The position numbers and the translations under genes were made by a program. This document shows, piece by piece, positions 3,642 to 55,137 of a stretch of DNA of 64,000 nucleotides; positions within the stretch are counted from its first letter, which is position 1, and each line of letters starts with the position of its first letter. Location: the NCBI GenBank assembly GCA_963822965.1, contig CAWGJT010000006.1, forward strand, positions 532,982 through 596,981, read 5' to 3'. The DNA comes from an uncultured delta proteobacterium (lineage in GTDB: Bacteria > Myxococcota_A > UBA9160 > UBA4427). Under the pieces are notes generated by a model, which saw only the letters and a list, made by a program, of their open reading frames with translations, did no database searches and was not told where the DNA came from.

Positions 3642-4586
3642 TCACGCGCGACGCACGCGAGACACCACCTGCGCCAGCAGGCCGGGATCGACGTTGCCGC
3701 CCGAGAGCACCACGCCGCAGCGGCCCCGTCCCTCGCGCAACGCCAGGGCCAGCGCGGCCGCACCCGAGGGCTCGAGCACCAGGCGCAGCTCGGAAAGCGC
3801 CCACGCCATGGCGTCCAGCATCTCCTCGTCCTCGACCAGCTCGATGCGCGAGACGTGCTTCGCGAGCACGGGCCAGGTGAGCTCCCCGGGCGTTCGAACC
3901 CGCAAGCCGTCCGCGATGGTGCGCGGCGGGGGCACGCTCACGCGTTCGCCCGCGGCGAGGCTCCGCCGCGTGTCGTCGGCGTCCACGGGCTCGACGCCGA
4001 TGATCTCGGCGTGGGGCGACAGGGCCTTCACGGCAACCGCACAGCCCGCCATCAGGCCGCCGCCGCTCACCGGCGCGTAGAAGCGATCGAGCTCGCCCGC
4101 GTCCTCGACGAGCTCGAGGCCGCAGGTCCCCTGCCCGGCCGCCACCCACGGATCGTCGAAGGGCGGCACCGCCACCAGCTCGCGCTCCCGCGCCAGCTCC
4201 CGCGCGCGCTGGGCGCGCTCGTCGCTGTCCGGTCCCACCTCGATCACCTCGGCGCCGTCGGCCAGGGCGCGCGCCCGCTTCGCCGGCGGCGCGTCGTTTG
4301 GCATCACGATGACCGCGTGCATGCCGAGCACGCGGGCCGCCCGGGCGACGGCCTGGGCGTGGTTGCCCGAGGAGTGGGCCACGACGCCGGGGCAATCGCG
4401 CGGCAGGCGCAGCATCTTGGCGAAGGCGCCCCGCAGCTTGAAGGCGCCGGTGGGCTGCAACGACTCGGGCTTGAGCAGGAGGTCGCAGCGCGGGCGCTCC
4501 ACGCGCAGCAGCGGCGTCCGCACCACGTAAGGCCGGATGCGTGCCGCCACGTCGCGGATCGTCTCCAGGGAGAGCCGGTCGATCAA
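3642..4586 (-). CDS. PLP-dependent threonine/serine dehydratase family (catabolic-type, no regulatory domain)
   Basis: SLQPTGAFKLRGA (PLP lysine), HSSGNHAQAVA, GGGGLMAG loop; about 314 aa. TTG start at 4586 overlaps the top6A stop (cTTGAtc), suggesting translational coupling. Confidence 0.7.
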   Translation of the reverse strand: MIDRLSLETIRDVAARIRPYVVRTPLLRVERPRCDLLLKPESLQPTGAFKLRGAFAKMLRLPRDCPGVVAHSSGNHAQAVARAARVLGMHAVIVMPNDAPPAKRARALADGAEVIEVGPDSDERAQRARELARERELVAVPPFDDPWVAAGQGTCGLELVEDAGELDRFYAPVSGGGLMAGCAVAVKALSPHAEIIGVEPVDADDTRRSLAAGERVSVPPPRTIADGLRVRTPGELTWPVLAKHVSRIELVEDEEMLDAMAWALSELRLVLEPSGAAALALALREGRGRCGVVLSGGNVDPGLLAQVVSRVRRA

Positions 4587-5935
4587 GGCAGGAAGGCTCC
4601 CACGTTGCGGAGCTTCGCGGGCAGGTACTCCTCGATCACGTAGTTCAGCCCCCACATCGCCAGGGACTGCTGCTCCGCGCGGACACCCATCTGCAGGAGC
4701 TGCTCGATCGCCTTCCGCCACGGCTTGCTGGCCTGGAAGAAGGGGTCGTTCTTGAGGGCGTCCCGGGCGCGCTTGACGTCGACCTCCTGGAGCGGGTGGG
4801 TCGGCAGCTGGTAGTCGATGATGTCCTGGGGTGTGACGCCGAGATAGCGCGCCTTCGGGACGCAGAAGAACTGGGAGAGATGGGCGGCGTTCCCCGAGCC
4901 CACCTTGAGGGTGCGGTAGATGTTCGAGATGCCGTAGGGATCGCAGTCCACGAAGGCATAGACCGGAATGGCGCAGTCGTCGGAGAGCTTGCGGATGAAC
5001 CGCCGGCACGCGCGCGCCGGCACGCCGGCCATGTTCACCAGGATGCAGTCGCGCGCCTGCCAGAACTTGTGGCTCTGGAGCCGCTGGAAGACGCCGCCCG
5101 TCTCGATCGCCAGGATGAACTTCGCCTTCGTCTCGAAGGAAAGGTGCTCGACGCTGGAGGGAATCGAGTACGCGCCCGACCCGAAGCGCGTGCAGTCGAT
5201 CCGCTCGATGCGTCCGCTGTCGCGGTCCGGGTCGAGCACGACCAGTCTCCCGGCGACGGCGCCGTTGTAGCCCTCGTCGGGGACGAAGCGCAGCTGCTCC
5301 CGCGAGACGCCCCGCAGCGAGAACATGGCCTCGATGTCGTCCATCACCGTGTCCGACTCGGTCTGGTCGTCGAACTTGGCTTCTTCCCAGTTCTTGCTCT
5401 GGTAGTACGCGTCCCGCTTCGTCGCGAAGTCGTTCGCCTCGACGAGATCCTTCGAGAGGCCCATCATGCGCAGGGTCTGGGCGAAGTTGCGCACCGTGTT
5501 GACGGTGAGGGTCCGCTGCTTCTTGTGCTTGCCGATCTCGAAGTACCCGCGCTTCTCCGAATACGAGACGTTCGAGAGCGATCGCACCGGGAACTCGAGG
5601 TCCGGCTTGCGTCCCTTCAGGATGTCCCGGTAGACGTCGTCCGCTCGGTCGTGGATGAGCCGAAGGGTCAGGTCGTCGGCCTTCTTCGTGGCCCGGGAGC
5701 GCTCGCCGGAGAGCCCCGTGCGGCCGCGCGCCGGCTTGCGCGCGGCCTTCTTCGCACGCGGCCCGCCGGCCGCGCCCCGCCGGACGGACTTCTTCGCCGC
5801 GCGGGAGGGCTTCTTCTTCGCGCTCGCCTGGGCCGGGCGGCGCGCCGGCTTCTTCTTCGCGCTCTTCTTGCGGGTCTTGCGGGCTGCCACGTCCTCTCCC
5901 GATCCCCGGATGTCGGACCCACGCAGGTTGTTCAC
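4583..5935 (-). CDS. top6A: DNA topoisomerase VI subunit A (Spo11/Top6A family) with about 95-aa K/R/A-rich N-terminal tail
   Basis: Track ORF (GTG start). Catalytic-tyrosine region FATKRDAYYQSKNW; Toprim E in ILAIETGGVF; DxD metal site FVDCDPYGISN. N-terminus is MNNLRGSDIRGSGEDVAARKTRKKSAKKKPARRPAQASAKKKPSRAAKKSVRRG... Confidence 0.8.
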   Translation of the reverse strand: MNNLRGSDIRGSGEDVAARKTRKKSAKKKPARRPAQASAKKKPSRAAKKSVRRGAAGGPRAKKAARKPARGRTGLSGERSRATKKADDLTLRLIHDRADDVYRDILKGRKPDLEFPVRSLSNVSYSEKRGYFEIGKHKKQRTLTVNTVRNFAQTLRMMGLSKDLVEANDFATKRDAYYQSKNWEEAKFDDQTESDTVMDDIEAMFSLRGVSREQLRFVPDEGYNGAVAGRLVVLDPDRDSGRIERIDCTRFGSGAYSIPSSVEHLSFETKAKFILAIETGGVFQRLQSHKFWQARDCILVNMAGVPARACRRFIRKLSDDCAIPVYAFVDCDPYGISNIYRTLKVGSGNAAHLSQFFCVPKARYLGVTPQDIIDYQLPTHPLQEVDVKRARDALKNDPFFQASKPWRKAIEQLLQMGVRAEQQSLAMWGLNYVIEEYLPAKLRNVGAFLP

Positions 5936-6231: not shown

Positions 6232-9200
6232 TCACGAGGCCGAAGCCGCGACCAGAAACAGCGGGCTGCGGCTGGACACCTGGAGCAGCACGGGCAGCAC
6301 CACGAGCACCAGCGGGAGCTGGAAGACCAGACCGGACACGATGGCGATCGCCAGCGGCTGGAGCATGGCCGAGCCCTCGCCGATGCCGAGAGCCAACGGC
6401 GCCAGGGCGAGGATGGCGGCGAAGGTGGTCATCGCGATCGGACGCATGCGATTCGCCCCGGCTCGAATGAAACGCTCCTCGGAAGCCGGTAGCTCCACGT
6501 ATTCCGAATAGTAGAAGATTGCGACTTCGGTCACGATGCCGATGATCATTGTCATGCCCATGCGAGAGGTGATGTTGAACTCGGTGCCGGTCACCCACAA
6601 GCCGAGATACACGCCCGCCACCGCGAGCAACGTCGTCACCAGCATCGCTCCGGCCACGCGGAAGGTCTCGTAGAGGAAGAGGAGCAGAAGAAAGACGAGC
6701 GCAACGGCAATGACGAGTATGATCGTCAGCCCGCGAAAGGCGATCTGCTGCTGCTCGTAGAGCCCACCCAGGGAGAAGGTGACACCATCGGGCAGCAGCC
6801 CGCGTTCGCTGAGCACCGTCTTCACCTCGGCGACGGTGGAGCCGAGGTCGCGACCGGCGATGCGGCCGGTCACGGCGACCATCCGCTTGAGGTCGTCGCG
6901 CGTGATTTCAGGCTGGCCGATGACGGGGGTGAGCGTCGCCACACGCTTGAGTGGAAAGAGGTGACCGTCCGCGGCACGCAGCAACAGGTTGCCGAGATCG
7001 GCCTCCGTCCTTCGATCCGCCTGCGGGATCCAGACGCGCACCCCGATCACCTTCGGTCCGCGCTGGATGCCCGACGTGACGGCACCGCCGAGAAAGTCGC
7101 CGACCGCCTGGGTGATCGCGTCGGGGTCCATCCCCTCGAGGCCCGCCTTGACGCGATTCACCTCGATGTTCAACGCGTCACCGGCCGGGACGATGCCGTC
7201 CTTGACCTCGATCACGCCATCGACCTTCGAGATCGCCTCGGCCACGGCGGGGCCGACCTGCTCCAGGACGGATTCTTCGTTGGAATAGAGCTTGATCTCG
7301 ATCGGCTGCGGGACGCTGGTGAGGTCGCCGATGAGATCCTCCATGAGCTGGGCGGTCTCGATTTGGAGGCCGGGCACCGTCCTCTCGACCCGGGTGCGAA
7401 CGTCTTCCATGATGGTCTCGATCGGCCGGCGGGGAAGCGGCACCAGGCGGACGAAGAAATCCCCGACGTTCGCCTCCGAGATCCCGCCCCCGAGCTGAAG
7501 CCCGGTCCGTCGCGAGTAGGTCTGAACGTCCGGAGTGGCCCGAAGGATGTCCTCGACCCGCCGAAGCAGTCGATCCGTCTCGGAGAGCGAGGTGCCGGGC
7601 GGCGAGAGGTAGTCGAGAATGAAGCCTCCCTCGTCCATCACGGGCATGAATCCGGTGGCCCCGTTGCGGAAGCCGAGCACTCCGCCGCCCACCAGCGGAA
7701 CGAGAAAGAGCAGCACGAGCCACGGGCGGGCGAAGAGCACCCGCATGAGGCGTTCGTAGAGACTCGGGACCGGGCCCGAGAAACGACCGCCTTCCTCCCG
7801 GACGTCCCGTTCGGTCAGGAGGCGCGCCGCGAGGATGGGAACGCCGACGAGCGAAAGGAAGAAGGAGATCACGAGGCTCGACGCCATCGTCAGCGAGAGC
7901 GCCTTGAAGAACGCGCCCGTCACTCCGGAAAGGAAGGCCAGCGGTGTGAAGATGATGATCGTGGCCGACGACGATCCAACCAGGGGCCGCGTGAACTCCG
8001 TCGCCGCCGCCAGCACCCGCTCGCGAATCCCCCCTTCCCCTCCCTCGCGGACGCGGCGGACGATGTGCTCGATCATGACGATGGCATCGTCGATGATGAG
8101 ACCGACCGCCGCCGCCATGCCGCCGAGCGTCATGATGTTGAAGCTCATCCCGAGCACGGAGAGCAGCAGAATGGTCGCAGCCAGCACGGCGGGCACCGTG
8201 AGGATGGCGATGAACGTCACCTTCCAGTCGCGCAGGAAGACGAGCAGCACGAGCGCGGCCAGGGCGATCCCGACGAGCACGGCGTCGCGGGTACTCGAGG
8301 CGGAAGCGATGATCAGGTCGCTCTGGTCGTACCAGTTGGCGACCCGAACGTCCGCGGGAAGCTGCTTCTCGAGCTCGGCGAGCTTCGCCTTGACGCCTTC
8401 CGCGATCTGGACGGTATTCCCTCCGGGCTGCTGGTAGACCTGGAAGAGAACGGCGTCGCGGCCGTCGGCGGTCACGCGAATCCACTGCGGCTGGGTGGAG
8501 CGCTCGACCGCCGCGACGTCGTCGAGCAGGACGACTCCGTATGGCGTCGACCGGAGGACGGTCCGGGAGATCTCCTCGAGGTTCTTGAACCGGGTATCGG
8601 AGATGACGAGGTAGAGCTTGTCGTTCTCTTCGAGCCGGCCTACCGCCGTGAGCACGTTCGAAGCGGAGAGCGCCTTGGCCACGTCGGCGAGCGTGAGGCC
8701 GAAGGATTGGAGCTTGGCCACGTCGGCCACGACGCGGAATTCCTCGACGCGGCCCCCCTGCACGCCGATGCGGGAGACGCCGGTCACGGTCGTCAGCGCC
8801 GGTCGCAGGGTGTAGAGGGCGAGATCGCGCAGCTCGGTGAGCGGTCGCGCGTTCGAGGTGAGGCTGTAGGCGATCACCGGAAACACGGTGGGATCCATGC
8901 GCTCGGCGTCGAACGAGGTGCCCGGCGGCAACGCCGGTATCACCTTGTTCACCTCCGACTCGGCCTGGAGCAGGGCGCTCGTCATGTCCTGGCCCCAGTC
9001 GAAGTTCACGGAGATCTGCGCGCTGCCCCGGCTCGTCGTGGAGCGCACGCCGCGCACGCCGGGGATGGCGCGGACGGCTTCTTCGATGGGTGTCGTCACC
9101 TCGACGACCATGCGCTCGGCCGGCCGGTCGCCGGCCTCGAGATCGATGCGGACGCGCGGGAAGCTGACCTGCGGAAAGAGGCTCACCGGGAGCTGGCAGC

Positions 9201-9285
9201 TGCTCATCGCCCCGGCCGCTGCGAGCACGGCGAAGAGGAAGAGGAGCGAGCGGGAGTGGCGGTGCGTCCAATCGGAGAAGTTCAT
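6232..9285 (-). CDS. RND efflux transporter permease (HAE1/HME, CzcA/CusA/AcrB-like), about 1017 aa
   Basis: Begins MNFSDWTHRHSRSLLFLFAVLAAAGA at ATG 9285 within track ORF 6232..12018; 12-TM RND topology with two large periplasmic loops; ends ...LFLVAASAS. Confidence 0.85.
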   Translation of the reverse strand: MNFSDWTHRHSRSLLFLFAVLAAAGAMSSCQLPVSLFPQVSFPRVRIDLEAGDRPAERMVVEVTTPIEEAVRAIPGVRGVRSTTSRGSAQISVNFDWGQDMTSALLQAESEVNKVIPALPPGTSFDAERMDPTVFPVIAYSLTSNARPLTELRDLALYTLRPALTTVTGVSRIGVQGGRVEEFRVVADVAKLQSFGLTLADVAKALSASNVLTAVGRLEENDKLYLVISDTRFKNLEEISRTVLRSTPYGVVLLDDVAAVERSTQPQWIRVTADGRDAVLFQVYQQPGGNTVQIAEGVKAKLAELEKQLPADVRVANWYDQSDLIIASASSTRDAVLVGIALAALVLLVFLRDWKVTFIAILTVPAVLAATILLLSVLGMSFNIMTLGGMAAAVGLIIDDAIVMIEHIVRRVREGGEGGIRERVLAAATEFTRPLVGSSSATIIIFTPLAFLSGVTGAFFKALSLTMASSLVISFFLSLVGVPILAARLLTERDVREEGGRFSGPVPSLYERLMRVLFARPWLVLLFLVPLVGGGVLGFRNGATGFMPVMDEGGFILDYLSPPGTSLSETDRLLRRVEDILRATPDVQTYSRRTGLQLGGGISEANVGDFFVRLVPLPRRPIETIMEDVRTRVERTVPGLQIETAQLMEDLIGDLTSVPQPIEIKLYSNEESVLEQVGPAVAEAISKVDGVIEVKDGIVPAGDALNIEVNRVKAGLEGMDPDAITQAVGDFLGGAVTSGIQRGPKVIGVRVWIPQADRRTEADLGNLLLRAADGHLFPLKRVATLTPVIGQPEITRDDLKRMVAVTGRIAGRDLGSTVAEVKTVLSERGLLPDGVTFSLGGLYEQQQIAFRGLTIILVIAVALVFLLLLFLYETFRVAGAMLVTTLLAVAGVYLGLWVTGTEFNITSRMGMTMIIGIVTEVAIFYYSEYVELPASEERFIRAGANRMRPIAMTTFAAILALAPLALGIGEGSAMLQPLAIAIVSGLVFQLPLVLVVLPVLLQVSSRSPLFLVAASAS

Positions 9286-10359
9286 CGCGAGGTGGTCCAC
9301 GGCCATGCCGTCCTCGAGCTCGGCGTTCCCCACCGTGACGACGAGATCGCCAGGCTCGAGGGCGTCGCCAAGGACCTCGGCTTCTCCGTCGGACACCACG
9401 CCGAGCCGGACCCGGTGGGCGACAGCCCGACCGTCGCGAACGGTGAACAGCTGCCACGCGTCGTCCTTCGGGAGGACGCTGGAGCGCGGAACCACGAGAG
9501 CGTCCTTCGATTCACGGGCGATGCTCGCCCGCAGGTATCCGTCGAGCATCAGGCCGCTGTCGGGCGGCAGGGACACATAGACGTCCACCAGGCGGGTCGC
9601 AGGATTGATGCGGCGAGTCACGAGGCGCACCGTTCCACCGATCTCGCGGCTGGCCGGCTGGTTGACCGGAAGCAGGGCGACGCTCTGCCCGACCGAGACC
9701 GCGACGAGATCCTCCGGCTCGACGCCGATCTTCGCTTCGATCTCGTCGGTCGCGATGATCTCGACGAGCGCGGCCCCGCCCGCGACGAGCTGGCCGTCCT
9801 GCACCGCCACGTTGGCGACGATTCCCTCGGAGGGCGCGCGGAGGAGGCCCGCCGTATCGGCGCCTTCGCGTTCCAGGCTCGCGAGCTGCAGCGCGGCCTG
9901 GGTGGCCGCCCTCTCGGCGGAGTTGAGATCCTGATTGGTGGCGAGCTTCAGGTCGAACCGCTCCTGGGTCTGCTTCAGCTCCTTCCGAGCGAGGTCCGCC
10001 GCGCTGCGCGCCTGGTTGACCTGCAGCTGCGTGGAAGGACTGGCGGCGATCGCGAGCAGGGGGTCGCCCTTCTCGACCGGCTGACCGGGAGCGACGAGGA
10101 CGTGGCTCACCCGTGCCTCGTAGGCGACCGAGGTCGTCTGGAGCTTCCCCGGTTGGGCGATGACGCTGCCGTAGGCGGTGACGGTCTCCGCGATCGTCTT
10201 GCGGCCCACCTTCACCGCCTCGACGAACGCGGTGGTCGCGTTCGATTCCGAGCCCGAGCCCGCGGGCGGCTCGGGCTCGGAGCACGCCGACCACCAGCCT
10301 ACCGCGAGGACGACGCTGGCAATCGGGACCGCGAGGACAAGGATTCGGCGCGGGCTCAT
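9286..10359 (-). CDS. efflux RND periplasmic adaptor (membrane fusion protein, HlyD/AcrA family); no in-frame stop before the RND ATG
   Basis: MSPRRILVLAVPIASVVLAVGWWSACS lipobox/signal; coiled-coil and beta-barrel MFP signature; ends ...VVTVGNAELEDGMAVDHLA and reads straight into MNFSDW. ATG at 10359 overlaps the OMF stop (ATGA). Confidence 0.7.
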
Positions 10360-11747
10360 GAGTCGTGGATCTGCGGCAGATAGCGTCCGGAGGCGATCTC
10401 CAGGGCCACCCACGCTTCGATCAGCTGCTGCTCGAGCTTGAGCAGCTCGACCTGGCGAAGGACGAGGTTGTAGCGAGTCTGGTAGTAGCTGATCACGTCC
10501 GTGTTTCCCTCGTCGAGGGCTGACTTCGCCGTCGTCACCAGTCGCTCGAGAGTCGGCACGGCTCTCGCCGCCTCGGCCACCTGGCGGTCGATCAGCCGGA
10601 TGTCGGACAGCGCAGTCGCGATGTCGGAGTGAGCTCGAAAGACGCGGTCGGCGTATTCGTCGAAGAGCTTCTGGCGCGTCGCACGCTCGCTGGCGATCGT
10701 GCCTTGATTCCGATCGAAGAGGGGGAGGTCCAGGGTGACGCCGAAACCGACGGTCTGCACGTCGGACGTGTCCCCTGCGCGGTTGAAGCCGATGGAAATC
10801 CTCGGGAACTGGGCGAGGATGGCCGCGCGCAGGTTGGCGTCCTCGCTCTCGTAGCCGGCCTTCAACGCGAGAAGATCGAGACGGTGGGTCTCCACTCCGG
10901 TCGTCAACTCGGACTCGGACGGTGGTTCGAGCCGGGTCGGCAATCGGGGGGTCTCGATGCGGGCGGGCGTATCCGAGGGGAATCCCATCGCCCGATTCAG
11001 CGCGAGACGCTCCCGCGCCAGGTCCTGCTCGAGACCCAGGGCCGTCAGCCTCGCATCCTCGCTGGTGGACTCCGCCGCCGACAGATCGAGAACCGTCTTC
11101 TCGTGCCGCTCTACCGCCTCTTGGAGCGTGGCCACGTTCTCGCGCAACGCCCGGTCGGCCTCGTCCGCGGCAGCGAGCTGCGCTTCGAGCGACGCGACCT
11201 TGTAGACGGCGGTACGGGCTGCCTGCGCGGTCAGCCACTCCACCCACGCCACGTCGAGATCCACGGAACGGACGTTGGCGCGGGCGGCTTCGCCCCTCGT
11301 CGACAGCGTGACGAGCGACGTCACGTCCCAGCTCGCCCCGAAGCCGAACGCCGTGACGGTGCCGGCCGTATTGCCCCCGACGACGTAGTCTCGACCGTAG
11401 GAGATCTGCGGGTTCGGCAGCACGCCCGCCTGGACGAGCTGCGCGGTCGCCAGTCCCCGCCGGTTGCGATCCGCCCGCAGCGTCGGATTGAGCAGTACGG
11501 CCAGCACCGCGGCCTCGTCTGGATTCACTCCGTCGCTGAGGTCGATCTCCATTGGACGGAGGATCGGATGCTCGATCTGCGAAGCGGCGACCCGCAGCAC
11601 CGCGACCTCGGGAACCCGGAGACTCTCCTCGACTGCCGCCTCGGTGAGCGGTTTCGGATGGTAGATCGAGCAACCCGAAGACACGAGGAGGCAGCTTGCG
11701 GCCAGCCGGAGCGGGAATCGTGGAATTCGAGCCATTCTCGGGACCAT
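10356..11747 (-). CDS. efflux outer membrane factor lipoprotein (TolC/NodT family)
   Basis: Track ORF 10356..11846; MVPRMARIPRFPLRLAASCLLVSSGCS lipoprotein signal; two repeated TolC-like halves; start 11747 (or 11735). Confidence 0.75.
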   Translation of the reverse strand: MVPRMARIPRFPLRLAASCLLVSSGCSIYHPKPLTEAAVEESLRVPEVAVLRVAASQIEHPILRPMEIDLSDGVNPDEAAVLAVLLNPTLRADRNRRGLATAQLVQAGVLPNPQISYGRDYVVGGNTAGTVTAFGFGASWDVTSLVTLSTRGEAARANVRSVDLDVAWVEWLTAQAARTAVYKVASLEAQLAAADEADRALRENVATLQEAVERHEKTVLDLSAAESTSEDARLTALGLEQDLARERLALNRAMGFPSDTPARIETPRLPTRLEPPSESELTTGVETHRLDLLALKAGYESEDANLRAAILAQFPRISIGFNRAGDTSDVQTVGFGVTLDLPLFDRNQGTIASERATRQKLFDEYADRVFRAHSDIATALSDIRLIDRQVAEAARAVPTLERLVTTAKSALDEGNTDVISYYQTRYNLVLRQVELLKLEQQLIEAWVALEIASGRYLPQIHDS

Positions 11748-12188: not shown

Positions 12189-14042
12189 CTAGAGCCTACG
12201 GCTCTTCTCGAGCACGTCGGTCAGGTTCTTCACGATACGATTCCGCTGCTTCTCGTCGAGCCCCAGGATGTGCTCGAGGCCGACGGCCACCTGCGGGATG
12301 TACTTCTCGATGTAGGCGCGCTTCTTGGCCTCGTCGGCAGCCCGGCGCCCCTTGCGGATGTGGGTGGCGACCCGCCGGCCGCATTCCTGCAGACCGAGCC
12401 GCAGCTCCTTGATGATTTCGGGATAGTGGGCGATCGCCTCCTTGCTTTCGGACGTGAACGGCACCCACACGCTCGCGATGTGCACCATCACCAGGGCCGG
12501 ACCCACGGGCAGCGCGCCCCGGGGCTGCTGGAGCTGGTAGGCGCGCCAGTCGGTCTGGACCACCGCCCGCGTGATCGCGCAGGCGCCCTGCTGGTACTGC
12601 AGGGGCACGCGGTTCGCGAAGCGGTAGAGGGTGATGGACTGCTCGGCGCCCATGTCGCCGCCGTAGGCGAGACCCACCTCGACGAGAAAGGGGTTGCCGC
12701 GATAGACGGCCGGCCGGCGGGTCACCGCAGCGTAGAAGTCCGCCTTCACCTCGGCCCGCAGGGCCCGCAGGATCAGGTCCTCGCCGATGGGCGCGATGCA
12801 GTCCGCGGGCGGGTTCATGATCTTCGTCTTCTGGATCGCCCGGTGGATGCGTTCGGCCTCGTTGCGGGTCACGTCCCGCGGCCGCCGCTTCGACGACACC
12901 TCGGCGCGCGCGCAGATCTCCTCGGCGGTGCGCGCCGAAACCCGCGCGAAGTCGCCCTGGAGACAGGTCCTCACGTTGCGGGCCTTGGTGTCGCGCAGCA
13001 TCTGCATCAGGACGCCGAGCTCCACACCGTAGGGATGGGGCTTGATCTCCGCCGTGAGGGGCGGCAGCTCCTTGGCGACGCGCGGAAACTCGATGGTGGG
13101 CTCCGAAGCGGCCGAGTCGCCGCCTCCTCCCGGCGCGGCTCCCTCCGCCGCCGGAGGCGCAACCGGCGGGACGTAGGTGATCTTCGCATGGGGGTTGGCG
13201 AGGGAGATCTGTCGAACGTAGGAGTCGACCGAGTGCTGCCCGCCGCGGTAGTTGCCTTCGAGCTCGATCTCCACCCGCGTGCCGTGGTCGACCGGCCAGG
13301 CCACGACCTTCTCGACCGACACCCGCGGCTCGTTCTTCTGGGTATCGATCACCAGCTCGAAGTGGTGGGCGTCCTTCCGCTTGCCGGTCCGGGTCAGGAT
13401 CTTGACGGGACGACCGGTCGTGATCAGCCCGTACATGCCCGCCGCGCTGATCCCGATGCCCTGCTGGCCCCGGCTCTGCCGCAGACGGTGGAACTTCGAG
13501 CCATAGAGGAGACGGCCGAAGATCTTCGGCACCTGGCCCCGCACGATGCCGGGACCGTTGTCCTCGATGGCGACGCGGAAGCGGGACTCGCCCTGCTGGG
13601 TGATCTCGACCCGGATGTCCGGCAGGATGCCCGCCTCCTCACAGGCGTCGAGGGAGTTGTCGACTCCCTCCTTGACGGTGGTGAGCAGGGCCTTCGAGGG
13701 ATTGTCGAACCCCAGCAGGTGCCGGTTCTTGGCGAAGAACTCGGAGACCGAGATGTCGCGCTGCTTGCGGCCCTGCTCGACCGCATCGGCGTGATGTACG
13801 GGCTTCGGCGCGCGACGAACCGCGGTGGCCTGGCGCGCGCCTTTTCGCTTCGCGGGCTTGCGGGTCGGCGGTCGCCTGCCGCCTGCCTGCCGCTTCGCCG
13901 GTTCCCGGGCCGGCTTCGCCTTCGCCTTCTTCTTCTTCTTCTTCTTCGACCTCTTCGGAGCTCTCGCCTTCGCGGCGGGCGCCCTGCGTTTGCGCCTCGT
14001 AGGCTCGCGCTTTTCGGGCTTTCGCGCGGAACGGGCCGCCAT
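12189..14042 (-). CDS. top6B: DNA topoisomerase VI subunit B (GHKL ATPase) with about 95-aa K/R-rich N-terminal tail
   Basis: Bergerat-fold motifs: N-box [10 protein letters not shown]1 DNGPGI, G2 GQQGIGISA; transducer domain follows. Start ATG at 14040-14042, preceded by GGGGGAGAGG RBS. Tail is [52 protein letters not shown]... Confidence 0.8.
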
Positions 14043-24402: not shown

Positions 24403-24443
24403 AAGCCAAGGCGGCGCTGACCTTCGGCTGCGGTCGGCCGCAC

Positions 24444-25330
24444 GTGCTGGTGGTGGGACTCGACGGCGCGAACTGGGCGGTCCTCGACCCGCCCATCGAC
24501 GCGGGCTATCTGCCGAACATCGGTCGTCTCGTGCGCCACGGCGCCGGCGCGGGGCTCCTCTGCGAGCCCGCGGATCCGGCCGCGCCGTGCTTCTGTCCGC
24601 CGGTCTGGACCTCCGTCGCCACCGGCGTGACGCGCGGCGAGCACCGCATCCGCAACGTCTTCGACCCTTCGTCCCGGCGCGCCCGCAAGACCATCGGCCG
24701 CCCGCGTGGGCGATCTTCGCCCGGGATCGCGCGGCGATGGCGGCGCTGCTCCAGCTCTCGCTGGCACGGGGCATGGCCGAGCCCTGGGACCGCAAGACCG
24801 AGCTCACCATGATGATCCTGCACGGACCGGACCGGGTGTCCCACCTGCTGTGGGGCGGTCTGCAGGACGTGATGTACGGACCGTTCCACACGGAGGCGCT
24901 GCTCGCCCAGGCGGCCGCCTACGACGGGCCGGTCCTCGAGCCCGGCCCCTTCGGCTGGGGACAGATCGCCGATCCCTACCTGGAGGTCGACGAATGGCTG
25001 GGACGACTCCTGCTGACACGCCGCTACGACTACATCGTGTTCGTCAGCGACCACGGCATGACGCGGAATCCCAACCCGGGACTGGCGGGGCAACACGACG
25101 TGGACTCGACCGAGGCCCACACGGGCATCCTGGCGATCCACGGAATGGGCGTGCGCGAGGGCGCCTGGCTCGGGGACGTCTCGGTGCTCGACGTCGCGCC
25201 CACTCTCGCGTACCTGCTCGACCTGCCCGTCGCCCTGGACCTGCCGGGTCGGGTGCTGCGCGAGGCGTTCACCGACGAACGGCTGGAGCGCCGGCCCGCC
25301 TATGCGAAGACCGTGATGAGCTGGGAGTGA
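24444..25330 (+). pseudogene. alkaline-phosphatase-superfamily nucleotide pyrophosphatase/phosphodiesterase-like gene with a -1 frameshift near 24680-24700 (or sequencing indel)
   Basis: N-terminal part HVLVVGLDGANWAVLDP...RIRNVFDP sits in the frame of track ORF 23040..24812. The continuation AWAIFARDRAAMAALLQ...VFVSDHGMT...ILAIHGMGV... sits in the frame of 24587..25330. Confidence 0.45.
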
Positions 25331-33392: not shown

Positions 33393-34166
33393 GTGGAGTA
33401 CTCACAGATCCTGTACGAGACCGAGGGTCCCGTCGCGACCATCACGCTCGACCGACCCGAGCGCCTCAACGCCTGGACGCCGCGCATGTCCCGGGAGCAG
33501 TGGCACGCCATCGAGCGGGCCAACGAAGATCCCCGGATCGGCACCATCGTCCTGACGGGCGCCGGCCGGGGCTTCTGCGCCGGCGCGGACGTGGGCGGCT
33601 TCCACGACCAGATCGAAGAGCAGCAGCAGGAGGAGCTCTCGACACCCGGGGACTGGGTGAAGCTCTGCCGCCGTTCGAAGCCGCTGATTGCGGCGGTCAA
33701 CGGCGCCTGCGTGGGCGTCGGGATGACCATGATCCTGCCCTTCGACGTCATCATCGCCTCGGAGCGGGCGCGCTTCGGAATGTTCTTCATCAAGATGGGA
33801 CTCGTGCCGGAGCTGGCGAGCACGCACTTCCTGGTGCAGCGGATGGGCTTCGCCAAGGCGAGCGAGCTCTGCCTGTCCGGGCGCCTCTACTCCGCGGGCG
33901 AGCTGGCGGGCCTGGGGCTGTTCAACGGCCTCGTGCCGCCGGACGAGCTGCTGTCACGGGCCGGCGAGCTCGCGCTCGAGATCGCGGCGAACCCGGATCC
34001 CCAGCTGCGCATGATCAAGGACCTGCTCAGCCGCAACGGGAGCGAGCCCGACCTCGACGTGGTGCAGTCCCGGGAGCTCGAGCTGTTGAAGCGCTGCTAC
34101 GACACGCCCGAGCACCACGAGGCCGTCGCAGCCTTCATGGAGCGGCGGACACCTCGCTTCCGCTGA
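33393..34166 (+). CDS. enoyl-CoA hydratase/isomerase (crotonase) family
   Basis: IVLTGAGRGFCAGADVGGF; GTG start after GGAGGGGG. Confidence 0.8.
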   Translation: MEYSQILYETEGPVATITLDRPERLNAWTPRMSREQWHAIERANEDPRIGTIVLTGAGRGFCAGADVGGFHDQIEEQQQEELSTPGDWVKLCRRSKPLIAAVNGACVGVGMTMILPFDVIIASERARFGMFFIKMGLVPELASTHFLVQRMGFAKASELCLSGRLYSAGELAGLGLFNGLVPPDELLSRAGELALEIAANPDPQLRMIKDLLSRNGSEPDLDVVQSRELELLKRCYDTPEHHEAVAAFMERRTPRFR

Positions 34167-34611
34167 GGGTCGTCTCGGGCGCCGCACCGCGCACGATCGT
34201 CGCGAGACGCCACGCCGCGAGCACGGACAGCGCCCCGAAGCCGCCCAGCAACCCGAGGACGAGGCCGGGCGTCCGCAGGGCGTGAGGCAGCAGGGGGGTC
34301 GCCAGCCCCGCGAGCCCCGCCATCGCCAGGGACGGCCGCAGCCCGAAGCCCAGCTCGCACCCCAGCAGGAACAGGACGGCCACGCTCGCGGCCACCACCC
34401 AGGCGTTCGTCCAGCTGGCGGCCCAGGCGACGAAGGGCCGGGGCCAGGCGGCCGTCGACCAGTCGTCCCAGCGCAGCCGGAAGGGGTTGCCGCCCGCGAA
34501 GGGCGCCTCGGGATCGGCGTGCGGGTCCATGCCCCGAGGCGTATCGAAGAGTCCCCGCTCCTCGGCCCGGGCGAGAGGGGCCAGCAGGCGGCCGACCAGC
34601 AGGCCGGGCAT
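34135..34611 (-). CDS. hypothetical membrane protein
   Basis: MPGLLVGRLLAPLA...WDDWSTAAWPRPFVAWAASWTNAWVVAASVAVLFLLG...; coding-like GC3; start uncertain; 3' end overlaps the crotonase gene by 31 nt. Confidence 0.35.
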   Translation of the reverse strand: MPGLLVGRLLAPLARAEERGLFDTPRGMDPHADPEAPFAGGNPFRLRWDDWSTAAWPRPFVAWAASWTNAWVVAASVAVLFLLGCELGFGLRPSLAMAGLAGLATPLLPHALRTPGLVLGLLGGFGALSVLAAWRLATIVRGAAPETTLSGSEVSAAP

Positions 34612-34680
34612 GGCTGCCAGGGACTGGCCGAGGCCGTACTTGGCGTAGAAGTGCTGACGGTGCTGCGCCTCGGCGCCCGC

Positions 34681-35673
34681 ATGCCGGGCCGGCTGGTGGC
34701 CGTCTTCGCGCCCCTGGCACTCGTCGCCCTGCCCCGCTTCTACGGTCACGCCTTCAACAACTCGAAGGACATCCCCTTCGCGTGTGCGTTCGTCTGGGCC
34801 GTTCACGCAAGCTGTCGGCTGGCGTGTCGCGAGGCGGGCTCGCGCCTGGGCCCGGCGCTGCTCTGCGGGCTCGCCGTCGGCGCCGCCCTGGCCATCCGGC
34901 CGGGCGGTCTCCCGTTGCTGCTCGGGCTCTTCGGCCTGCTGCTGGCCTGGCGCCTGGGGGTGCGAGACGGCGGCGCCCGCGGCGCCTGGCGGGGGGTGCT
35001 GCAGGACGCCCTCGTGGCCTGGGCCGCGGCCTGGCTCGTGATGGTGGCCCTGTGGCCCTGGGCGCACGAGAGCCCCGTGCTGAACCCGCTGCGCGCCGTG
35101 GCCCTGCTGGCGGGCCTCGCGGCAGCTTCGCTCGTCGAGGTGCTGGCGACGCTCGCGCAGCGGCACGCGGGGCCGCGCCCGGCTGCCCGGGTGCGCGTCG
35201 CAACGGTCTGCGCGATGGGCCTGACCCTGGCCACGGCCTTCGTCCAGCACGTCCGCCTGCACCCGTACCAGAGCACCTACTTCAACGCGCTGGTGGACGG
35301 CGTGGCCGGGGCGGACGGCCGCTACGAGACCGACCACTGGCTGTCCAGCTACAAGGAAGCCATCGAATGGGTCAACGCCCGCACCGCCGGCGCCGGCCGC
35401 GAGGTGACGGTGCTGGTGGCCGCCGATCCCTACTCGAGCGACTGCGCGGCGAGCTTCCTCGGCCCCGGCGTCTGCATGGTCCGAACCGTCGAGCAGGGGG
35501 TGGGCGGGGCCCTGCCCGAGCCCTTCGATTTCTACGTCGCCACCACGCGCTACGGGCTGGACGCGAACTTCCCGGGGTCCGAGGTCGCCCATCGGGTCGG
35601 GCGGCTGGGAGCCACCTTCACGGTGATCCGCGCGCGGGAAGGCGGGGCAGAACGCAGTCTCGCGGGGCGCTAG
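34681..35673 (+). CDS. membrane protein resembling the C-terminal two-thirds of GT39/ArnT/PMT-family glycosyltransferases (N-terminal catalytic part not found)
   Basis: ...HPYQSTYFNALVDGVAGADGRYETDHWLSSYKEAIEWVNARTAGAGREVTVLVAADPYSS...; typical GT39 C-terminal periplasmic domain preceded by TM helices. Confidence 0.45.
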   Translation: MPGRLVAVFAPLALVALPRFYGHAFNNSKDIPFACAFVWAVHASCRLACREAGSRLGPALLCGLAVGAALAIRPGGLPLLLGLFGLLLAWRLGVRDGGARGAWRGVLQDALVAWAAAWLVMVALWPWAHESPVLNPLRAVALLAGLAAASLVEVLATLAQRHAGPRPAARVRVATVCAMGLTLATAFVQHVRLHPYQSTYFNALVDGVAGADGRYETDHWLSSYKEAIEWVNARTAGAGREVTVLVAADPYSSDCAASFLGPGVCMVRTVEQGVGGALPEPFDFYVATTRYGLDANFPGSEVAHRVGRLGATFTVIRAREGGAERSLAGR

Positions 35674-35705
35674 TCCTGATCCGTCATGCGGATCAGGGCG
35701 CAACT

Positions 35706-35892
35706 CCCAATGCCTGCCGAATCGCTGCCTCTTGCTCGGTCCGTGCCGCGATCCGAGCCCGACGCCAGGACCTCATGGGAATGAGGTTGTCGCGCTCAGG
35801 CTGGTTCCGCCGTCCTCGCACGATCCGCGAGGCCTGGCAGGGGCTGCGGCACGCAGGAAGCACGCTGAATGACGCATTGGGGCTAGCAGGCC
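35706..35892 (+). repeat. dispersed ~187-bp intergenic repeat, copy 2 (about 91% identical to 11847-12032)
   Basis: See copy 1; lies between the GT39-like gene and prs, same orientation as copy 1. Confidence 0.8.
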
Positions 35893-37007: not shown

Positions 37008-38392
37008 ATGCACGGACGACGGATCGCGCCCGCCCTGGGCGCCGCCGCCCTGGCCTTCGCGGTGCTGCTCGCCCTGGGCTGGCCGGCGCCGGCCTACGCG
37101 GTCGCGATCGCCGCCATGACCTTCGTCGCCGTCGCCACCCCCGTCTCCGCCAACGTGCAGATCGCCGCGGCCAGCGCCGCGGCCGTCGTGCTGGGCGTGC
37201 TCCCGGACAGCGGCATCGAGCAGGTGCAGATCGTCGGGCGTCTCTTCATCTCGCTGCTCAAGATGCTGATCGCCCCGATGATCCTGCTCTCCATCGTTCA
37301 CGGCATCGCCGGCATGTCGCGCGCCCGGGATTTCGGCCGCATGGGTACGCGCACGGTGGTCCTCTACGTGGCGACCATGGCCCTGGCGGTCCTCACCGGG
37401 CTCGTCTTCGTCAACCTCTTCCAGCCGGGCGCGGGCAGCGAGCTGCGGCACAGCGAGTTCTTCGCGAAGGCCCTGGCGGAGGCCGGGGACCGCCGGCCCC
37501 CACCGACCTCGCCCTCGGCGACGCCGTCGCCCGCATCCTGATGAGCGTCTTCGGCAACCCGATCCGTGCGCTGGCCGACGGGCAGATCCTGCCGATCGTG
37601 ACCTTCGCGGTGCTCTTCGGCCTGGCCCTGCTGCAGCTCGGCGAGCGCGTGCGACCCCTGGTGGACGTCCTGGGTGCGGCGAACCTGGCGGTGATGCACC
37701 TGATCGGGTGGTTCGTCCGGCTGGCGCCCGTGGGAATCTTCGCGCTCCTCGGCAACCTGATCGCCGGCACGGGCTTCGCCGAGCTCGCCCGCCACCTGGG
37801 CGCGTTCGCCGCCGTGGTGGTCGGCGCCACGCTGGTCCACGCCCTCGTGACCCTGCCGCTGGTGGTTCGATTCGTCGGGGGCGCCTCGCCCCTCGCCTTC
37901 CTGCGCGGCATCCAGCCGGCGCTCTGGGTCGCCTTCTCCACGAGCTCGAGCGCGGCCACCCTGCCGGTCACGACCCGCTGCGTCGAGGACGATCTCGCCG
38001 TCCCGACCGAGGTCGCGAGCTTCGTGCTGCCCCTGGGCGCCACCGTGAACATGGACGGCACCGCCCTGTACGAGGCCATCGCCGCCATCTTCGTGGCGAA
38101 CATCTACGGCATGGAGCTTCCCCTGGCGAGCCAGCTCGTCGTCTTCGCGATCGCCATGGTGTCGGCCATCGGCGCACCGGGCATTCCGTCGGCGGGCATG
38201 GTGACGATGGTGGTGGTGCTGGAGGCGGTGGGGCTCCCCGCGGAGGCGGTGGCGTTGCTGCTCACCATCGACCGGGTGCTCGACACGATCCGCACGATGA
38301 CGAACGTGGAGGGGGACGCGGCCGTGGCCCTGTGCGTGGCACGCCTGGGCCCCGCCCGCGCGCCCAATGCCCCGAGCGCGGTGAACCGATAA
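37008..38392 (+). pseudogene. dicarboxylate/amino acid:cation symporter (DAACS, GltP/DctA family) with a -1 frameshift at a C5/G4 run near 37485-37501 (or homopolymer indel)
   Basis: N-terminus is ORF 37008..37541 up to ...FQPGAG. The conserved continuation TDLALGDAVARILMSVFGNPIRALADGQILPIVTFAVLFG... sits in the frame of ORF 37541..38392 (AATLPVTTRC, GATVNMDGTALYEAIAAIF, PSAGMVTMVVVL motifs). Confidence 0.55.
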
Positions 38393-42857: not shown

Positions 42858-44300
42858 TCAGGGCTGGGTCTGGGCCGGCCTCCAGTTGCCGTGGAAGCCG
42901 TAGGGGATGCGGTGCGGGAGCTTCACCGTCGCCAGGGGCTTCGCATCCACGTTGCACGCGTCGAGGACGAGGAGGTCGCTGCGATTCGCCGCGCCCCGAT
43001 GCACGAGCACCAACACGAAGCCGTCCCCCTCCTCGGCTTCCGCGCTTCGCGGAACGAACACCGGCTCGCCCAGGGTGTCGCCCTCGGGCAGCCGGTGCAT
43101 CCGCTTCTTGCCGGTGGCGAGATCGTAGTGGAGCACCGCGTCGAACCCCGGACGCGAATCGAAGTCCCGATCTCGAGGACGCGAGCCGCCGCCGCTGTAG
43201 CCGTGGCGATAGGTCTTGCCCGCATGGCGTTCGTCGAGACGCGGAAACTCGCAGGGACAGTCGTCCAGGGCCTCTTCCTTCACGGTGCCGCTCGTCAGGT
43301 CGATCGTCCAGCGGTGGAGCGTCGCCGGCGCCGAGCCCTCGACGCCGAAGAACGGGAGCCGCGGGTAGCGGGCGACCTCGGCGATCACCCGCTGTCCGTC
43401 GCTGTGCGCGTTCATGGGGTGGAAGACGTAGCAGGGATCGCTCTGGACCCAGACCACGTCGGCGCTGCCCCCGTCCCGCGGCATCACGCCGATGTGGGTG
43501 CCCGCCTCGGGGCGCCACACCAGCGGGGAGCCCGTCTTCTCGATGGCTTCGAGGTCGAAGACCGCGGGGAACACGGGGAAGATCACGTGGGACTCGGTGG
43601 TGATGAAGTCGTGCATCATGCTGGCGAAGGGGACGTCGATCTCGACGCTGCGAACGAGGCGTCCGGCGGCATCCACCACCATGTAGGTGAGGAAGGGCGG
43701 CAGCGGCGCGTAGGCGAACATCAGCATCTCGCCCGAATCGGGGTCCATCTTCGGGTGCGCGGTCATGATGCCGGGCACGATCCCGCTGTCGTTGCCCGCG
43801 AGCGCGGGATCCAGGTGACGGACGAGCTTTCCCTCGAAGTCCCACAGTCCCCGGGTCTCGAGGCTCAGCGGGTCGAGCTCGTGGGGCGGTCCGGCCTCCC
43901 ACAGGGCCAGGAGCCGCCCGCCGTGCCACACGATGTTCGTGTTGGCCGCATTCCCGCTGACGCCGGCGATGCGTTCGTCGCCCGCCGTCATGTCGGCGAG
44001 CCCGCCGAAGAGCGCCTGGCCCGCCTCGCCCTCGCGCCGGAAGCGCTCGGTCTGGACCCAGCGGTTGCGGTAGTCGCAGTGACCGTCCTCGAAGAAGAAG
44101 CCGTGGATCATCCCGTCGCCGTCGAACCAGTGGTAGCGGCCCCTGGGCGCGAACTGGGGGTTCGGCCCGTTGCGGTAGTAGGCGCCGTTCAGCTCGCGCG
44201 GAATCTCGCCTTCGACGGCCAGGTCGCGGATCTGCCCCTCCATCGGCCAGGGCGCGAAGTTGCCTTCCAGGAACGGGACGGCGGGAAAGGGCTTGCTCAT
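42858..44300 (-). CDS. carotenoid oxygenase family (carotenoid/stilbene cleavage dioxygenase, RPE65-like)
   Basis: His ligands in HWFDGDGMIHG, TAHP, HDF, FHGNW; AGGAG RBS + ATG 44300. Confidence 0.8.
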   Translation of the reverse strand: MSKPFPAVPFLEGNFAPWPMEGQIRDLAVEGEIPRELNGAYYRNGPNPQFAPRGRYHWFDGDGMIHGFFFEDGHCDYRNRWVQTERFRREGEAGQALFGGLADMTAGDERIAGVSGNAANTNIVWHGGRLLALWEAGPPHELDPLSLETRGLWDFEGKLVRHLDPALAGNDSGIVPGIMTAHPKMDPDSGEMLMFAYAPLPPFLTYMVVDAAGRLVRSVEIDVPFASMMHDFITTESHVIFPVFPAVFDLEAIEKTGSPLVWRPEAGTHIGVMPRDGGSADVVWVQSDPCYVFHPMNAHSDGQRVIAEVARYPRLPFFGVEGSAPATLHRWTIDLTSGTVKEEALDDCPCEFPRLDERHAGKTYRHGYSGGGSRPRDRDFDSRPGFDAVLHYDLATGKKRMHRLPEGDTLGEPVFVPRSAEAEEGDGFVLVLVHRGAANRSDLLVLDACNVDAKPLATVKLPHRIPYGFHGNWRPAQTQP

Positions 44301-44971
44301 GCAGGGCTCCTCTTGGCTTCGGGGGAATCGCTGGCTGCCGCACCGCAGGCGCTCTCCACGCAGCGGATGGCCTCGCTCAGATATGCGCCCTCGTCGGCTC
44401 CGTCGCCTTCGATGAAGCAGCTCTGCAGCGCGCCTGCGACGAGCGCATGGCAGAGCTCGGCGACGATGCGGGTGTTCATGGAGCGTGCGGCGCCGAGCGC
44501 GACCGCCGCCTGCAGCGTCTTCTCGAGGGCGGCGACGATGGGATCGTGGGTGCCCGCGCGGACGAGCGGGGCCAGGTCGGGATCGCGCGTCGCGAACGCG
44601 CGATGCAGCTCGCGGTGCTGGCCCACGAAGGCGAAGCCCGCCTGGATGGCGGCGCGCGGAGACGGGGGTCGTCTCGTGGGGTCGTCGCCGAACATCGCGC
44701 GCACGAACTCGCGGCCGTAGGAGGCGGCCACCGCCCCGAACAGCTCGCGCTTGGAGCGGAAGTGATGGAAGACGATTCCCTCGGAGACGCCGGCTGCCCG
44801 GGCGATGCCCGCGGTGGTCGTCCCCACGTAGCCCCGCTCCGCAAAGAGCCGGGCAGCGGCCGCGGCGATCTGCTCGCGCTTCTCGCCCGGGGCGCGGCGG
44901 CGGGCGTGGGGCGCCGCCCTGCGGGCGGTACCGGAACGGACGCGGCGGGCGGAGGCGCTCGACGAGGTCAC
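44297..44971 (-). CDS. TetR/AcrR family transcriptional regulator
   Basis: HTH YVGTTTAGIARAAGVSEGIVFHHFRSK; stop overlaps the oxygenase start. Confidence 0.75.
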   Translation of the reverse strand: MTSSSASARRVRSGTARRAAPHARRRAPGEKREQIAAAAARLFAERGYVGTTTAGIARAAGVSEGIVFHHFRSKRELFGAVAASYGREFVRAMFGDDPTRRPPSPRAAIQAGFAFVGQHRELHRAFATRDPDLAPLVRAGTHDPIVAALEKTLQAAVALGAARSMNTRIVAELCHALVAGALQSCFIEGDGADEGAYLSEAIRCVESACGAAASDSPEAKRSPA

Positions 44972-53366: not shown

Positions 53367-53489
53367 GGTTGGAACCCTCCTGTGTCGCTTCCGTCTCTAT
53401 TCGCGAAGTCCGCGAAGTCGTTTCTGCGGGGCCTGGAAGCCGGCCCCCCGGCCGGCCCCTTGCTCCACGTGGACCCTAGGTGCACAGTC

Positions 53490-55129: not shown

Positions 55130-55137
55130 CCCCTTTC

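What the first reader, a model, noticed from the sequence alone, without database searches (positions are those of the whole stretch)
9250..9320. No stop codon between the membrane fusion protein and the RND pump: in-frame MFP-RND fusion or cryptic frameshift
The MFP C-terminus ...GNAELEDGMAVDHLA runs directly into the RND start MNFSDW (gac cac ctc gcg ATG aac). The same bases contain gcgATGAac, the classic ATGA stop/start overlap, but in the +1 frame. That would be expected if a 1-nt indel just upstream removed the MFP stop. As written, translation predicts a fusion protein of about 1375 aa.
Basis: seen in the sequence. Interest (0 to 1): 0.5.

Follow-up and report, generated by a model that had tools for sequence, protein, structure and literature searches.

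The report
One extra G fakes pump fusion
The missing stop codon between the adaptor and pump genes of an ordinary three-part efflux operon comes from one extra G that close relatives lack, in an assembly with several other single-base frameshifts, so it is most likely a sequencing error and not a natural fusion protein.

Summary
On the minus strand the adaptor (MFP) frame, starting at ATG 10359, runs without a stop into the pump (RND) ATG at 9285, giving a 1375-aa ORF. The TGA of the ATGA (9284-9282) is in the +1 frame. The cause was found. Two independent short contigs, 97.6% identical to the window over 3.5 kb, differ by 82-84 substitutions and one gap: the window has an extra G (GCCGT[G]GACC, 9297/9298). 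Without it the MFP ends ...GMAVTTSR at the ATGA overlap. Of 24 orthologous loci, 22 have this 4-nt overlap, 2 have short spacers, and none is fused. The same 64 kb holds about four more frameshift-type breaks in otherwise intact genes: SDF symporter (G5 to G4, verified), DUF481 (two) and probably a phosphodiesterase-family gene. dN/dS is 0.10-0.20 on both sides of the two breaks tested (MFP/RND and SDF). A zero-linker MFP-RND fusion conflicts with RND membrane topology. Other junction-spanning proteins in public databases are truncated, frameshift-riddled fragments. Verdict: an ordinary OMF-MFP-RND operon with an indel, most likely an assembly error (about 0.75) and otherwise a very recent mutation (about 0.2). 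Low interest.

The parts
10356..11747 (-). Outer-membrane factor (OMF, TolC-like) gene, 463 aa, first gene of the operon
   Evidence: PF02321 OEP, two stretches, E=4e-29. The 463-aa product from ATG 11747 is on record from the window's own contig as P0243, and a 463-aa cluster-mate comes from a relative.
10356..10359 (-). Intact ATGA stop/start overlap between OMF and MFP
   Evidence: The OMF stop is at 10358-10356 and the MFP ATG at 10359-10357. No Shine-Dalgarno-like motif lies just upstream.
9286..10359 (-). Periplasmic adaptor (MFP) reading frame as written: 358 codons with no stop
   Evidence: TIGR01730 RND_mfp at 128 bits, above its cutoff of 94.9, aligned 46-355 to profile 1-320/322. 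HlyD_D23 and HlyD_3 also match. There is a single N-terminal hydrophobic anchor at residues 6-24.
9297..9298 (-). The extra G: one of these two G's (GTG|GAC on the minus strand, CC on the plus strand) is absent from close relatives
   Evidence: It is the only gap in 3,492 aligned bases against L001 and L002, at 97.6% identity. Seven more distant orthologs also read GTGACC (Val-Thr) at this point.
9282..9285 (-). ATGA: the RND start codon (9285-9283) overlapping the out-of-frame TGA (9284-9282) that would be the MFP stop once the extra G is removed
   Evidence: In L001 and L002 the MFP (358 aa, P0003) ends TTSR-TGA here.
6232..9285 (-). RND permease gene, 1017 aa
   Evidence: PF00873 ACR_tran, E=1.6e-208, aligned 15-1016 of 1021. 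There are about 12 hydrophobic segments and two large loops. dN/dS is 0.149 against L001 over the first 324 codons.
6232..10359 (-). Fused 1375-aa ORF as written (MFP plus RND), present in public protein collections as P0242
   Evidence: It is a singleton 90% cluster from one 968,608-bp NCBI/ENA contig.

Best explanation
The locus is an ordinary tripartite RND efflux operon in the order OMF, MFP, RND. Its genes are normally joined by 4-nt ATGA stop/start overlaps, which suggests translational coupling. That coupling is inferred from the overlaps and the lack of Shine-Dalgarno motifs. In this assembly a single extra G at 9297/9298, 12-13 nt before the RND ATG, shifts the last four MFP codons from TTSR-stop to DHLA. 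This puts the MFP in frame with the RND gene and creates an apparent 1375-aa fusion. The extra G is most likely a single-base indel error of the assembly, not biology. In the organism the MFP (358 aa) and RND (1017 aa) are probably separate proteins, as in all relatives. Shown: the indel, its uniqueness to this record, the conserved overlap in orthologs, and the other frameshifts in the window. Inferred: that the indel is an error and not a real mutation.
For: (1) L001 and L002 are Logan contigs from two sequencing runs. They align to window 11805-8314 at 97.6% identity, with 82-84 substitutions and one gap, which is the extra G. Their MFP (P0003, 358 aa) ends ...GMAVTTSR at the ATGA. (2) Junction census: 22 of 24 orthologous loci have an ATGA or GTGA overlap, 2 have short spacers, and none is fused. 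(3) The window holds more frameshift-type breaks in otherwise intact genes. The SDF symporter is split at about 37488, where the window has G4 and relatives have G5 with an intact 461-aa protein. DUF481 needs two frame switches, and the repaired protein matches the full profile at 87 bits against 30 for the fragment. A Phosphodiest-family gene is split across two frames. That is about 5 breaks in 4 of about 57 genes. (4) Over about 21 kb compared with relatives, the only frame-shifting coding indels are the two single-G changes. All other in-gene gaps are multiples of 3. (5) dN/dS is 0.10-0.17 for OMF, MFP and RND, and 0.15 and 0.20 for the two SDF halves, so there is no decay. (6) Topology: the MFP body is periplasmic and RND TM1 begins 13 residues after its Met, so a zero-linker fusion is incompatible with an N-in RND (plus established AcrB topology). 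(7) The fused product is a singleton cluster from one 968,608-bp contig. All other junction-spanning proteins are truncated, with out-of-frame junk, from fragmented assemblies.
Against: No reads or assembly metadata were available, so error and real mutation cannot be separated directly. The extra G turns a single G into GG and does not change a long homopolymer, so it is not the most typical homopolymer error. Three of the five breaks (DUF481 twice, Phosphodiest) could not be compared with close relatives. A frequency of 4 broken genes in 57 is high but not impossible for real pseudogenes. The relatives are a different strain (95-97.6% identity), so the G could be a true strain difference.
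Confidence: 0.75

Rival explanations
1. The extra G is a real, very recent frameshift mutation in this strain. Ribosomes translating the MFP then fail to terminate at the ATGA and read into the RND gene. This would make a 1375-aa chimera that is probably mis-inserted and degraded. Free RND would be made only by inefficient internal initiation, because there is no Shine-Dalgarno motif. The pump would be impaired or lost, an incipient pseudogene.
For: The sequence as deposited contains the G. The relatives are a different strain, so real differences are expected. A single-base duplication of a neighbouring base is also a common replication-slippage mutation. Low dN/dS is compatible with a very recent event.
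Against: It would require four independent, equally recent frameshifted genes within 64 kb, none showing any further decay. Of the roughly 18 genes that could be compared with relatives, 2 carry a frame-shifting indel, far above what purifying selection normally allows at 95-97% identity. The allele is seen in only one record.
Confidence: 0.2
2. It is a natural, functional covalent MFP-RND fusion, an adaptor tethered to its pump and selected for in this lineage.
For: The frame is open, and both domains are complete and under purifying selection. Some database proteins carry both an MFP C-terminal domain and ACR_tran.
Against: None of the 24 orthologous loci is fused, including the 97.6%-identical relatives. 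The fusion has no linker. The periplasmic MFP C-terminus would be joined directly to 13 residues that must be cytoplasmic before RND TM1. All other two-domain proteins examined are truncated and carry out-of-frame junk, from contigs with shattered RND genes. The held text of a comprehensive review mentions no fused adaptor-pump polypeptide, natural or engineered.
Confidence: 0.02
3. It is programmed recoding. The gene really has the extra G, and ribosomes shift +1 near the end of the MFP so that they terminate at the ATGA.
For: A +1 shift anywhere in the last four codons would restore termination at the TGA at 9284-9282.
Against: The stretch GCC GTG GAC CAC CTC GCG ATG contains no slippery motif, either X XXY YYZ or CUU UGA-like. 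The shift site is not conserved, because relatives simply lack the G. Other genes in the window carry similar unprogrammed breaks.
Confidence: 0.01

Closest known systems
Tripartite RND efflux operons with gene order OMF-MFP-RND (for example czcCBA or cusCBA type, and more generally AcrAB-TolC and MexAB-OprM systems)
   Same: There are three adjacent same-strand genes with OEP repeats, an RND_mfp adaptor and an ACR_tran permease. The RND has about 12 TM segments with two large loops.
   Different: As written, the adaptor has no stop codon. The RND scores far below the curated cutoffs of all NCBIfam subfamily and equivalog models, for example RND_permease_2 at 527 bits against 1250 and CusA/CzcA at 430 against 701. 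The substrate class is therefore unknown and it is not an ortholog of any named pump.
Translationally coupled genes with a 4-nt ATGA/GTGA stop-start overlap
   Same: The OMF/MFP junction in the window has it (10359-10356). 22 of 24 orthologous MFP/RND junctions have it. The ATGA letters are present at 9285-9282.
   Different: In the window the TGA is out of frame with the MFP because of the extra G, so the overlap cannot act as a terminator as written.
Chimeric 'fusion' ORFs created by indel errors in error-prone (often long-read) assemblies
   Same: A single-base indel lies next to a tight gene junction. The assembly has other single-base frameshifts, one of them a G5 to G4 homopolymer contraction. 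L027 is analogous, with a fusion at an A7 run, as are L030 and nine representative proteins.
   Different: The window is much cleaner than those assemblies, at about one break per 13 kb, with both fused genes otherwise intact. The sequencing technology of the source record is unknown to me.
Engineered adaptor-pump fusions used for structural work on AcrAB-TolC (recalled from my own knowledge, not verified here)
   Same: Adaptor and RND pump sit on one polypeptide.
   Different: As I recall, those constructs use designed linkers and an order that respects membrane topology. Here the periplasmic C-terminus of the adaptor would be joined with no linker to the cytoplasmic N-terminus of the pump. 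I could not retrieve the primary paper.

Membership tests
Tripartite RND efflux system (OMF + MFP + RND) | Inner-membrane RND permease of the AcrB/ACR_tran fold | tested here: met
   PF00873, E=1.6e-208, profile 15-1016 of 1021. About 12 hydrophobic segments.
Tripartite RND efflux system (OMF + MFP + RND) | Periplasmic adaptor of the RND_mfp/HlyD family | tested here: met
   TIGR01730 at 128 bits, above its cutoff of 94.9, near full length. PF16576 and PF13437 also match.
Tripartite RND efflux system (OMF + MFP + RND) | Outer-membrane factor with two OEP repeats | tested here: met
   PF02321, two stretches, E=4e-29.
Tripartite RND efflux system (OMF + MFP + RND) | Adaptor and pump are separate polypeptides | tested here: not met
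   Not met in the window as written. Met in all 24 orthologous loci and once the extra G is removed.
Named RND subfamilies (HAE-1 multidrug, CusA/CzcA heavy-metal) | Score above the curated NCBIfam cutoff | tested here: not met
   Best is NF033617 at 527 bits against a cutoff of 1250. TIGR00914 scores 430 against 701.
ATGA-type translationally coupled gene pair | The upstream gene's stop codon overlaps the downstream start in a 4-nt NTGA | tested here: not met
   For MFP/RND the TGA at 9284-9282 is in the +1 frame relative to the MFP. For OMF/MFP the feature is met at 10359-10356. Of 24 orthologs, 22 meet it at MFP/RND.
ATGA-type translationally coupled gene pair | Downstream translation depends on upstream termination (functional coupling) | not testable with these tools
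   There is only indirect support: no Shine-Dalgarno-like motif lies within 15 nt of the MFP or RND starts.
Natural gene fusion (Rosetta-stone type) of MFP and RND | The fused architecture recurs in independent genomes | tested here: not met
   None of 24 loci is fused. P0242 is a singleton. The other spanning proteins are frameshift artefacts.
Natural gene fusion (Rosetta-stone type) of MFP and RND | The junction is compatible with the membrane topology of both parts (linker or extra TM) | tested here: not met
   There is no linker. Only 13 residues lie between the MFP end and RND TM1, and there is no extra hydrophobic segment.
Programmed ribosomal frameshift | A slippery sequence conserved with the frame change in relatives | tested here: not met
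   No slippery motif is present. Relatives have no frame change.
Assembly or sequencing indel artefact | The indel is absent from near-identical independent sequences | tested here: met
   L001 and L002 lack the G. L028 and L029 have G5 where the window has G4 in the SDF gene.
Assembly or sequencing indel artefact | Other unexplained single-base frameshifts occur in the same assembly | tested here: met
   SDF, DUF481 (two) and probably Phosphodiest.
Assembly or sequencing indel artefact | Raw reads contradict the consensus at the site | not testable with these tools
   No reads or assembly metadata are accessible. The source contig (968,608 bp, NCBI/ENA) could not be fetched.

The most novel reading that the evidence does not exclude
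The extra G is real, and this strain makes a covalent MFP-RND polypeptide that still functions. For example, RND TM1 might insert after cleavage, or the chimera might act alongside internally initiated RND. That would be a natural tethered adaptor-pump.
Probability: 0.02. Interest if true: 0.55.

Novelty: not a real feature. Interest (0 to 1): 0.06.

Why it matters
Biologically it matters little, because the operon is a routine efflux system. In practice the 1375-aa MFP-RND "fusion" (P0242) and the split SDF fragments are already in public protein collections, taken from this record. Similar chimeras recur at the 4-nt overlap between adaptor and pump genes in indel-prone assemblies. They can be mistaken for new domain architectures or used as Rosetta-stone evidence. 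This case shows how to recognise them: compare with near-identical contigs, census the junction across orthologs, and count other frameshifts in the same assembly.

Tried and rejected
(1) Exact-product look-ups for the fusion, the RND alone, the OMF and the SDF fragment in the contig index all failed. I could therefore not fetch the window's own record or its metadata. The cluster look-up showed only that it is a 968,608-bp NCBI/ENA contig.

(2) Two scans of JGI metagenome contigs with patterns accepting both alleles gave nothing and then one chance match, L032.

(3) A natural fusion was rejected. P0001/L027 fuses at an A7 run and P0002/L030 through a junk linker, and both lie in contigs whose RND genes are shattered. 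Nine junction-spanning representatives are all truncated with out-of-frame strings.

(4) An earlier, hidden frameshift inside the MFP was rejected. GC3 is constant and the TIGR01730 alignment reaches residue 355 of 358.

(5) Programmed frameshifting was rejected, because there is no slippery motif and no conservation.

(6) Literature: the held text of the Chem Rev 2021 review mentions no adaptor-pump fusion, natural or engineered. The primary paper on engineered AcrA-AcrB fusions could not be retrieved.

(7) My first crude GC3 filter for gene mapping was inadequate. I replaced it with a per-codon likelihood map.

(8) Taxonomy was not determined. The closest named homologs are MAGs from several phyla. 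I ran no further search on it.

Full report
**Observation**

The finding lies on the minus strand. Read 5'->3', the sequence is ...GGC ATG GCC GTG GAC CAC CTC GCG ATG AAC TTC TCC..., which translates to ...GMAVDHLA-MNFSDW.... The adaptor (MFP) frame opens at ATG 10359 and meets no stop until 6234-6232. The mechanical ORF reaches 12018 (1928 aa). The part upstream of 10359 is Arg-rich read-through in the wrong frame of the preceding gene.

The TGA inside ATGA (9284-9282) is in the +1 frame. This is not merely a chance open frame in 70% G+C DNA:
- GC3 is 0.82-0.98 in this single frame from 10359 to 6232.
- TIGR01730 (RND_mfp) aligns to MFP residues 46-355 of 358, covering profile positions 1-320 of 322.
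- ACR_tran and the NCBIfam RND models begin near RND residues 14-24, at the matching profile positions.

Both genes are therefore complete. Any frame error must lie in the last few MFP codons.

**Context**

The preceding gene (11747-10356, minus strand) is a TolC-like outer-membrane factor with PF02321 repeats. It ends in an intact ATGA overlap with the MFP start at 10359-10356. The locus is thus an OMF-MFP-RND operon. None of the three starts has a nearby Shine-Dalgarno-like motif. This fits expression through termination-reinitiation at the 4-nt overlaps, which is an inference.

**Cause of the missing stop**

A homolog search with 300 aa spanning the junction returned P0003. It is a 358-aa MFP, 99% identical, ending ...ELEDGMAVTTSR. 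Its two source contigs, L001 and L002, are Logan assemblies of two sequencing runs. They align to window 11805-8314 at 97.6% identity with 82-84 substitutions and exactly one gap. The relatives read GCCGT-GACCACCTCGCGATGAAC and the window reads GCCGTGGACCACCTCGCGATGAAC.

The extra G is one of the two G's at 9297-9298. It converts GTG ACC ACC TCG CGA TGA (V T T S R stop) into GTG GAC CAC CTC GCG ATG A.. (V D H L A M).

**Orthologs**

I fetched 24 orthologous loci from species-representative genomes and located the MFP stop and RND start in each.
- 22 have an ATGA or GTGA overlap.
- 2 have short spacers: L007, and L016 with 11 nt.
- None is fused.
- Seven read GTG ACC (Val-Thr) at the site, matching the repaired window sequence.
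- The more distant MFP orthologs from the protein search also stop four residues after GMAV.

**Other "fusions" in databases**

Two proteins from the first search (P0001, P0002) carry both an MFP C-terminal domain and ACR_tran. Their contigs (L027, L030) have the RND gene shattered into many small ORFs. P0001's junction is an A7 run, GAGATCAAAAAAATGAGC.

A filter-free search of 1.84 billion representative proteins put nine junction-spanning proteins among the top 150. All are truncated and contain obvious out-of-frame strings rich in Arg, Pro and Gly. None is a clean protein of about 1,375 aa.

The window's own fused product, P0242, is a singleton 90% cluster from one 968,608-bp NCBI/ENA contig. 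The held text of a comprehensive 2021 review of tripartite pumps mentions no adaptor-pump fusion, natural or engineered.

**Is the assembly prone to indels?**

I mapped 57 genes by codon-position G+C likelihood and scanned all of them against Pfam. Nearly all give full-length matches. Three further genes are broken.

- **SDF symporter.** It is split into 37008-37541 (profile positions 3-95) and 37541-38392 (positions 124-386). All homologs are intact at about 445-465 aa. A cluster-mate from the close relatives, P0241, is 461 aa. DNA alignment shows G5 in the relatives and G4 in the window at about 37488. Every other gap in that 6.8 kb is intergenic.
- **DUF481.** The gene at 59979-59024 (minus strand) is readable only with two frame switches, near 59563 and 59424. 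The repaired protein matches the whole profile (positions 2-210 of 210) at 87 bits, against 30 bits for the fragment.
- **Phosphodiesterase-family gene.** Profile positions 1-62 lie in one frame (24441-24665) and positions 157-226 in another (24737-25330). This evidence is weaker.

In a third comparison (L031, 11.1 kb, 94.9% identity, nine genes), all within-gene gap clusters sum to multiples of three. Over about 21 kb compared with relatives, the only frame-shifting coding indels are the two single-G changes, both unique to the window. Overall there are about five breaks in four of about 57 genes, roughly one per 13 kb.

**Selection and topology**

dN/dS between the window and the relatives is 0.175 for OMF, 0.103 for MFP and 0.149 for the first 324 RND codons. 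For the SDF gene it is 0.15 upstream and 0.20 downstream of its frameshift. The genes tested in this way show no decay, so the breaks are either extremely recent or not real.

The MFP has one N-terminal hydrophobic anchor (residues 6-24) and a periplasmic body. RND TM1 starts 13 residues after its Met. By established AcrB-type topology those 13 residues are cytoplasmic. A zero-linker fusion would therefore force a periplasmic domain directly onto a cytoplasmic segment, which argues against a functional fusion.

**Conclusion**

The most likely explanation (about 0.75) is a single-base insertion error in the assembly of an otherwise ordinary OMF-MFP-RND operon, in which MFP and RND are separate, translationally coupled proteins. 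A real, very recent frameshift in this strain remains possible (about 0.2) and would probably impair the pump. A selected natural fusion (about 0.02) and programmed recoding (about 0.01) are not supported. Reads or Sanger sequence across 9200-9400 and across the other break sites would decide.

**Limits**

I could not retrieve the source record, its reads or its sequencing technology. Neither allele was found in JGI metagenome contigs. Three of the five breaks were not checked against close relatives. The organism was not identified.

Noticed in passing
window 37008-38392 (+): A sodium:dicarboxylate symporter (PF00375) is split into a 177-aa and a 283-aa ORF by a one-base contraction of a G run. 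The window has G4 and close relatives have G5, at about 37485-37488. Both fragments are in public collections as separate proteins (P0245, P0144). The relatives' intact protein is 461 aa (P0241).
   Followed up: yes
window 59024-59979 (-): A DUF481 (PF04338) outer-membrane-type gene needs two frame switches, near 59563 (TACACTCCAC) and 59424 (GACGACCTGGAAC). The repaired 321-aa protein matches the full profile. No close relative was available to confirm which bases are extra.
   Followed up: partly
window 24441-25330 (+): A type I phosphodiesterase/nucleotide pyrophosphatase-family gene appears split between two frames, with profile positions 1-62 at 24441-24665 and 157-226 at 24737-25330. This is probably a fifth frameshift, but the profile evidence is weak (E about 1e-6 for each piece).
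   Followed up: partly
window 4583-5935 (-) and 12189-14042 (-): Bacterial topoisomerase VI subunit A (TP6A_N, Toprim) and subunit B (HATPase_c, Topo-VIb transducer) lie on the same strand but are separated by the 5.5-kb OMF-MFP-RND operon. From my own knowledge, these two genes are usually adjacent. The arrangement may reflect insertion of the efflux operon between them.
   Followed up: no
window 49223-56901: A complete phosphate-uptake and regulation cluster: PstS-like PBP (52323-53342), two permeases (50050-52243) and an ABC ATPase (49223-50038) on the minus strand, then PhoU (53690-54373), an OmpR-type response regulator (54440-55129) and a HAMP/PAS histidine kinase (55138-56901) on the plus strand.
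   Followed up: no
window 34135-35772: Two long overlapping ORFs lie on opposite strands (plus strand 34519-35673, minus strand 34135-35772) with similar codon-position G+C. Neither has any Pfam match, so which strand is coding is unresolved.
   Followed up: partly
L027 6001-7341; L030 6001-7413; proteins P0248-P0363: Pseudo-fusions of MFP and RND recur in public protein sets. They come from indel-ridden assemblies in which an indel near the 4-nt stop/start overlap joins the frames. L027's junction is an A7 run. They could contaminate domain-architecture statistics.
   Followed up: yes
window 42858-44827 (-): A full-length RPE65/carotenoid-cleavage oxygenase (PF03055, E=3e-145) is overlapped by 4 nt by a TetR-family regulator gene just upstream of it on the same strand.
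   Followed up: no
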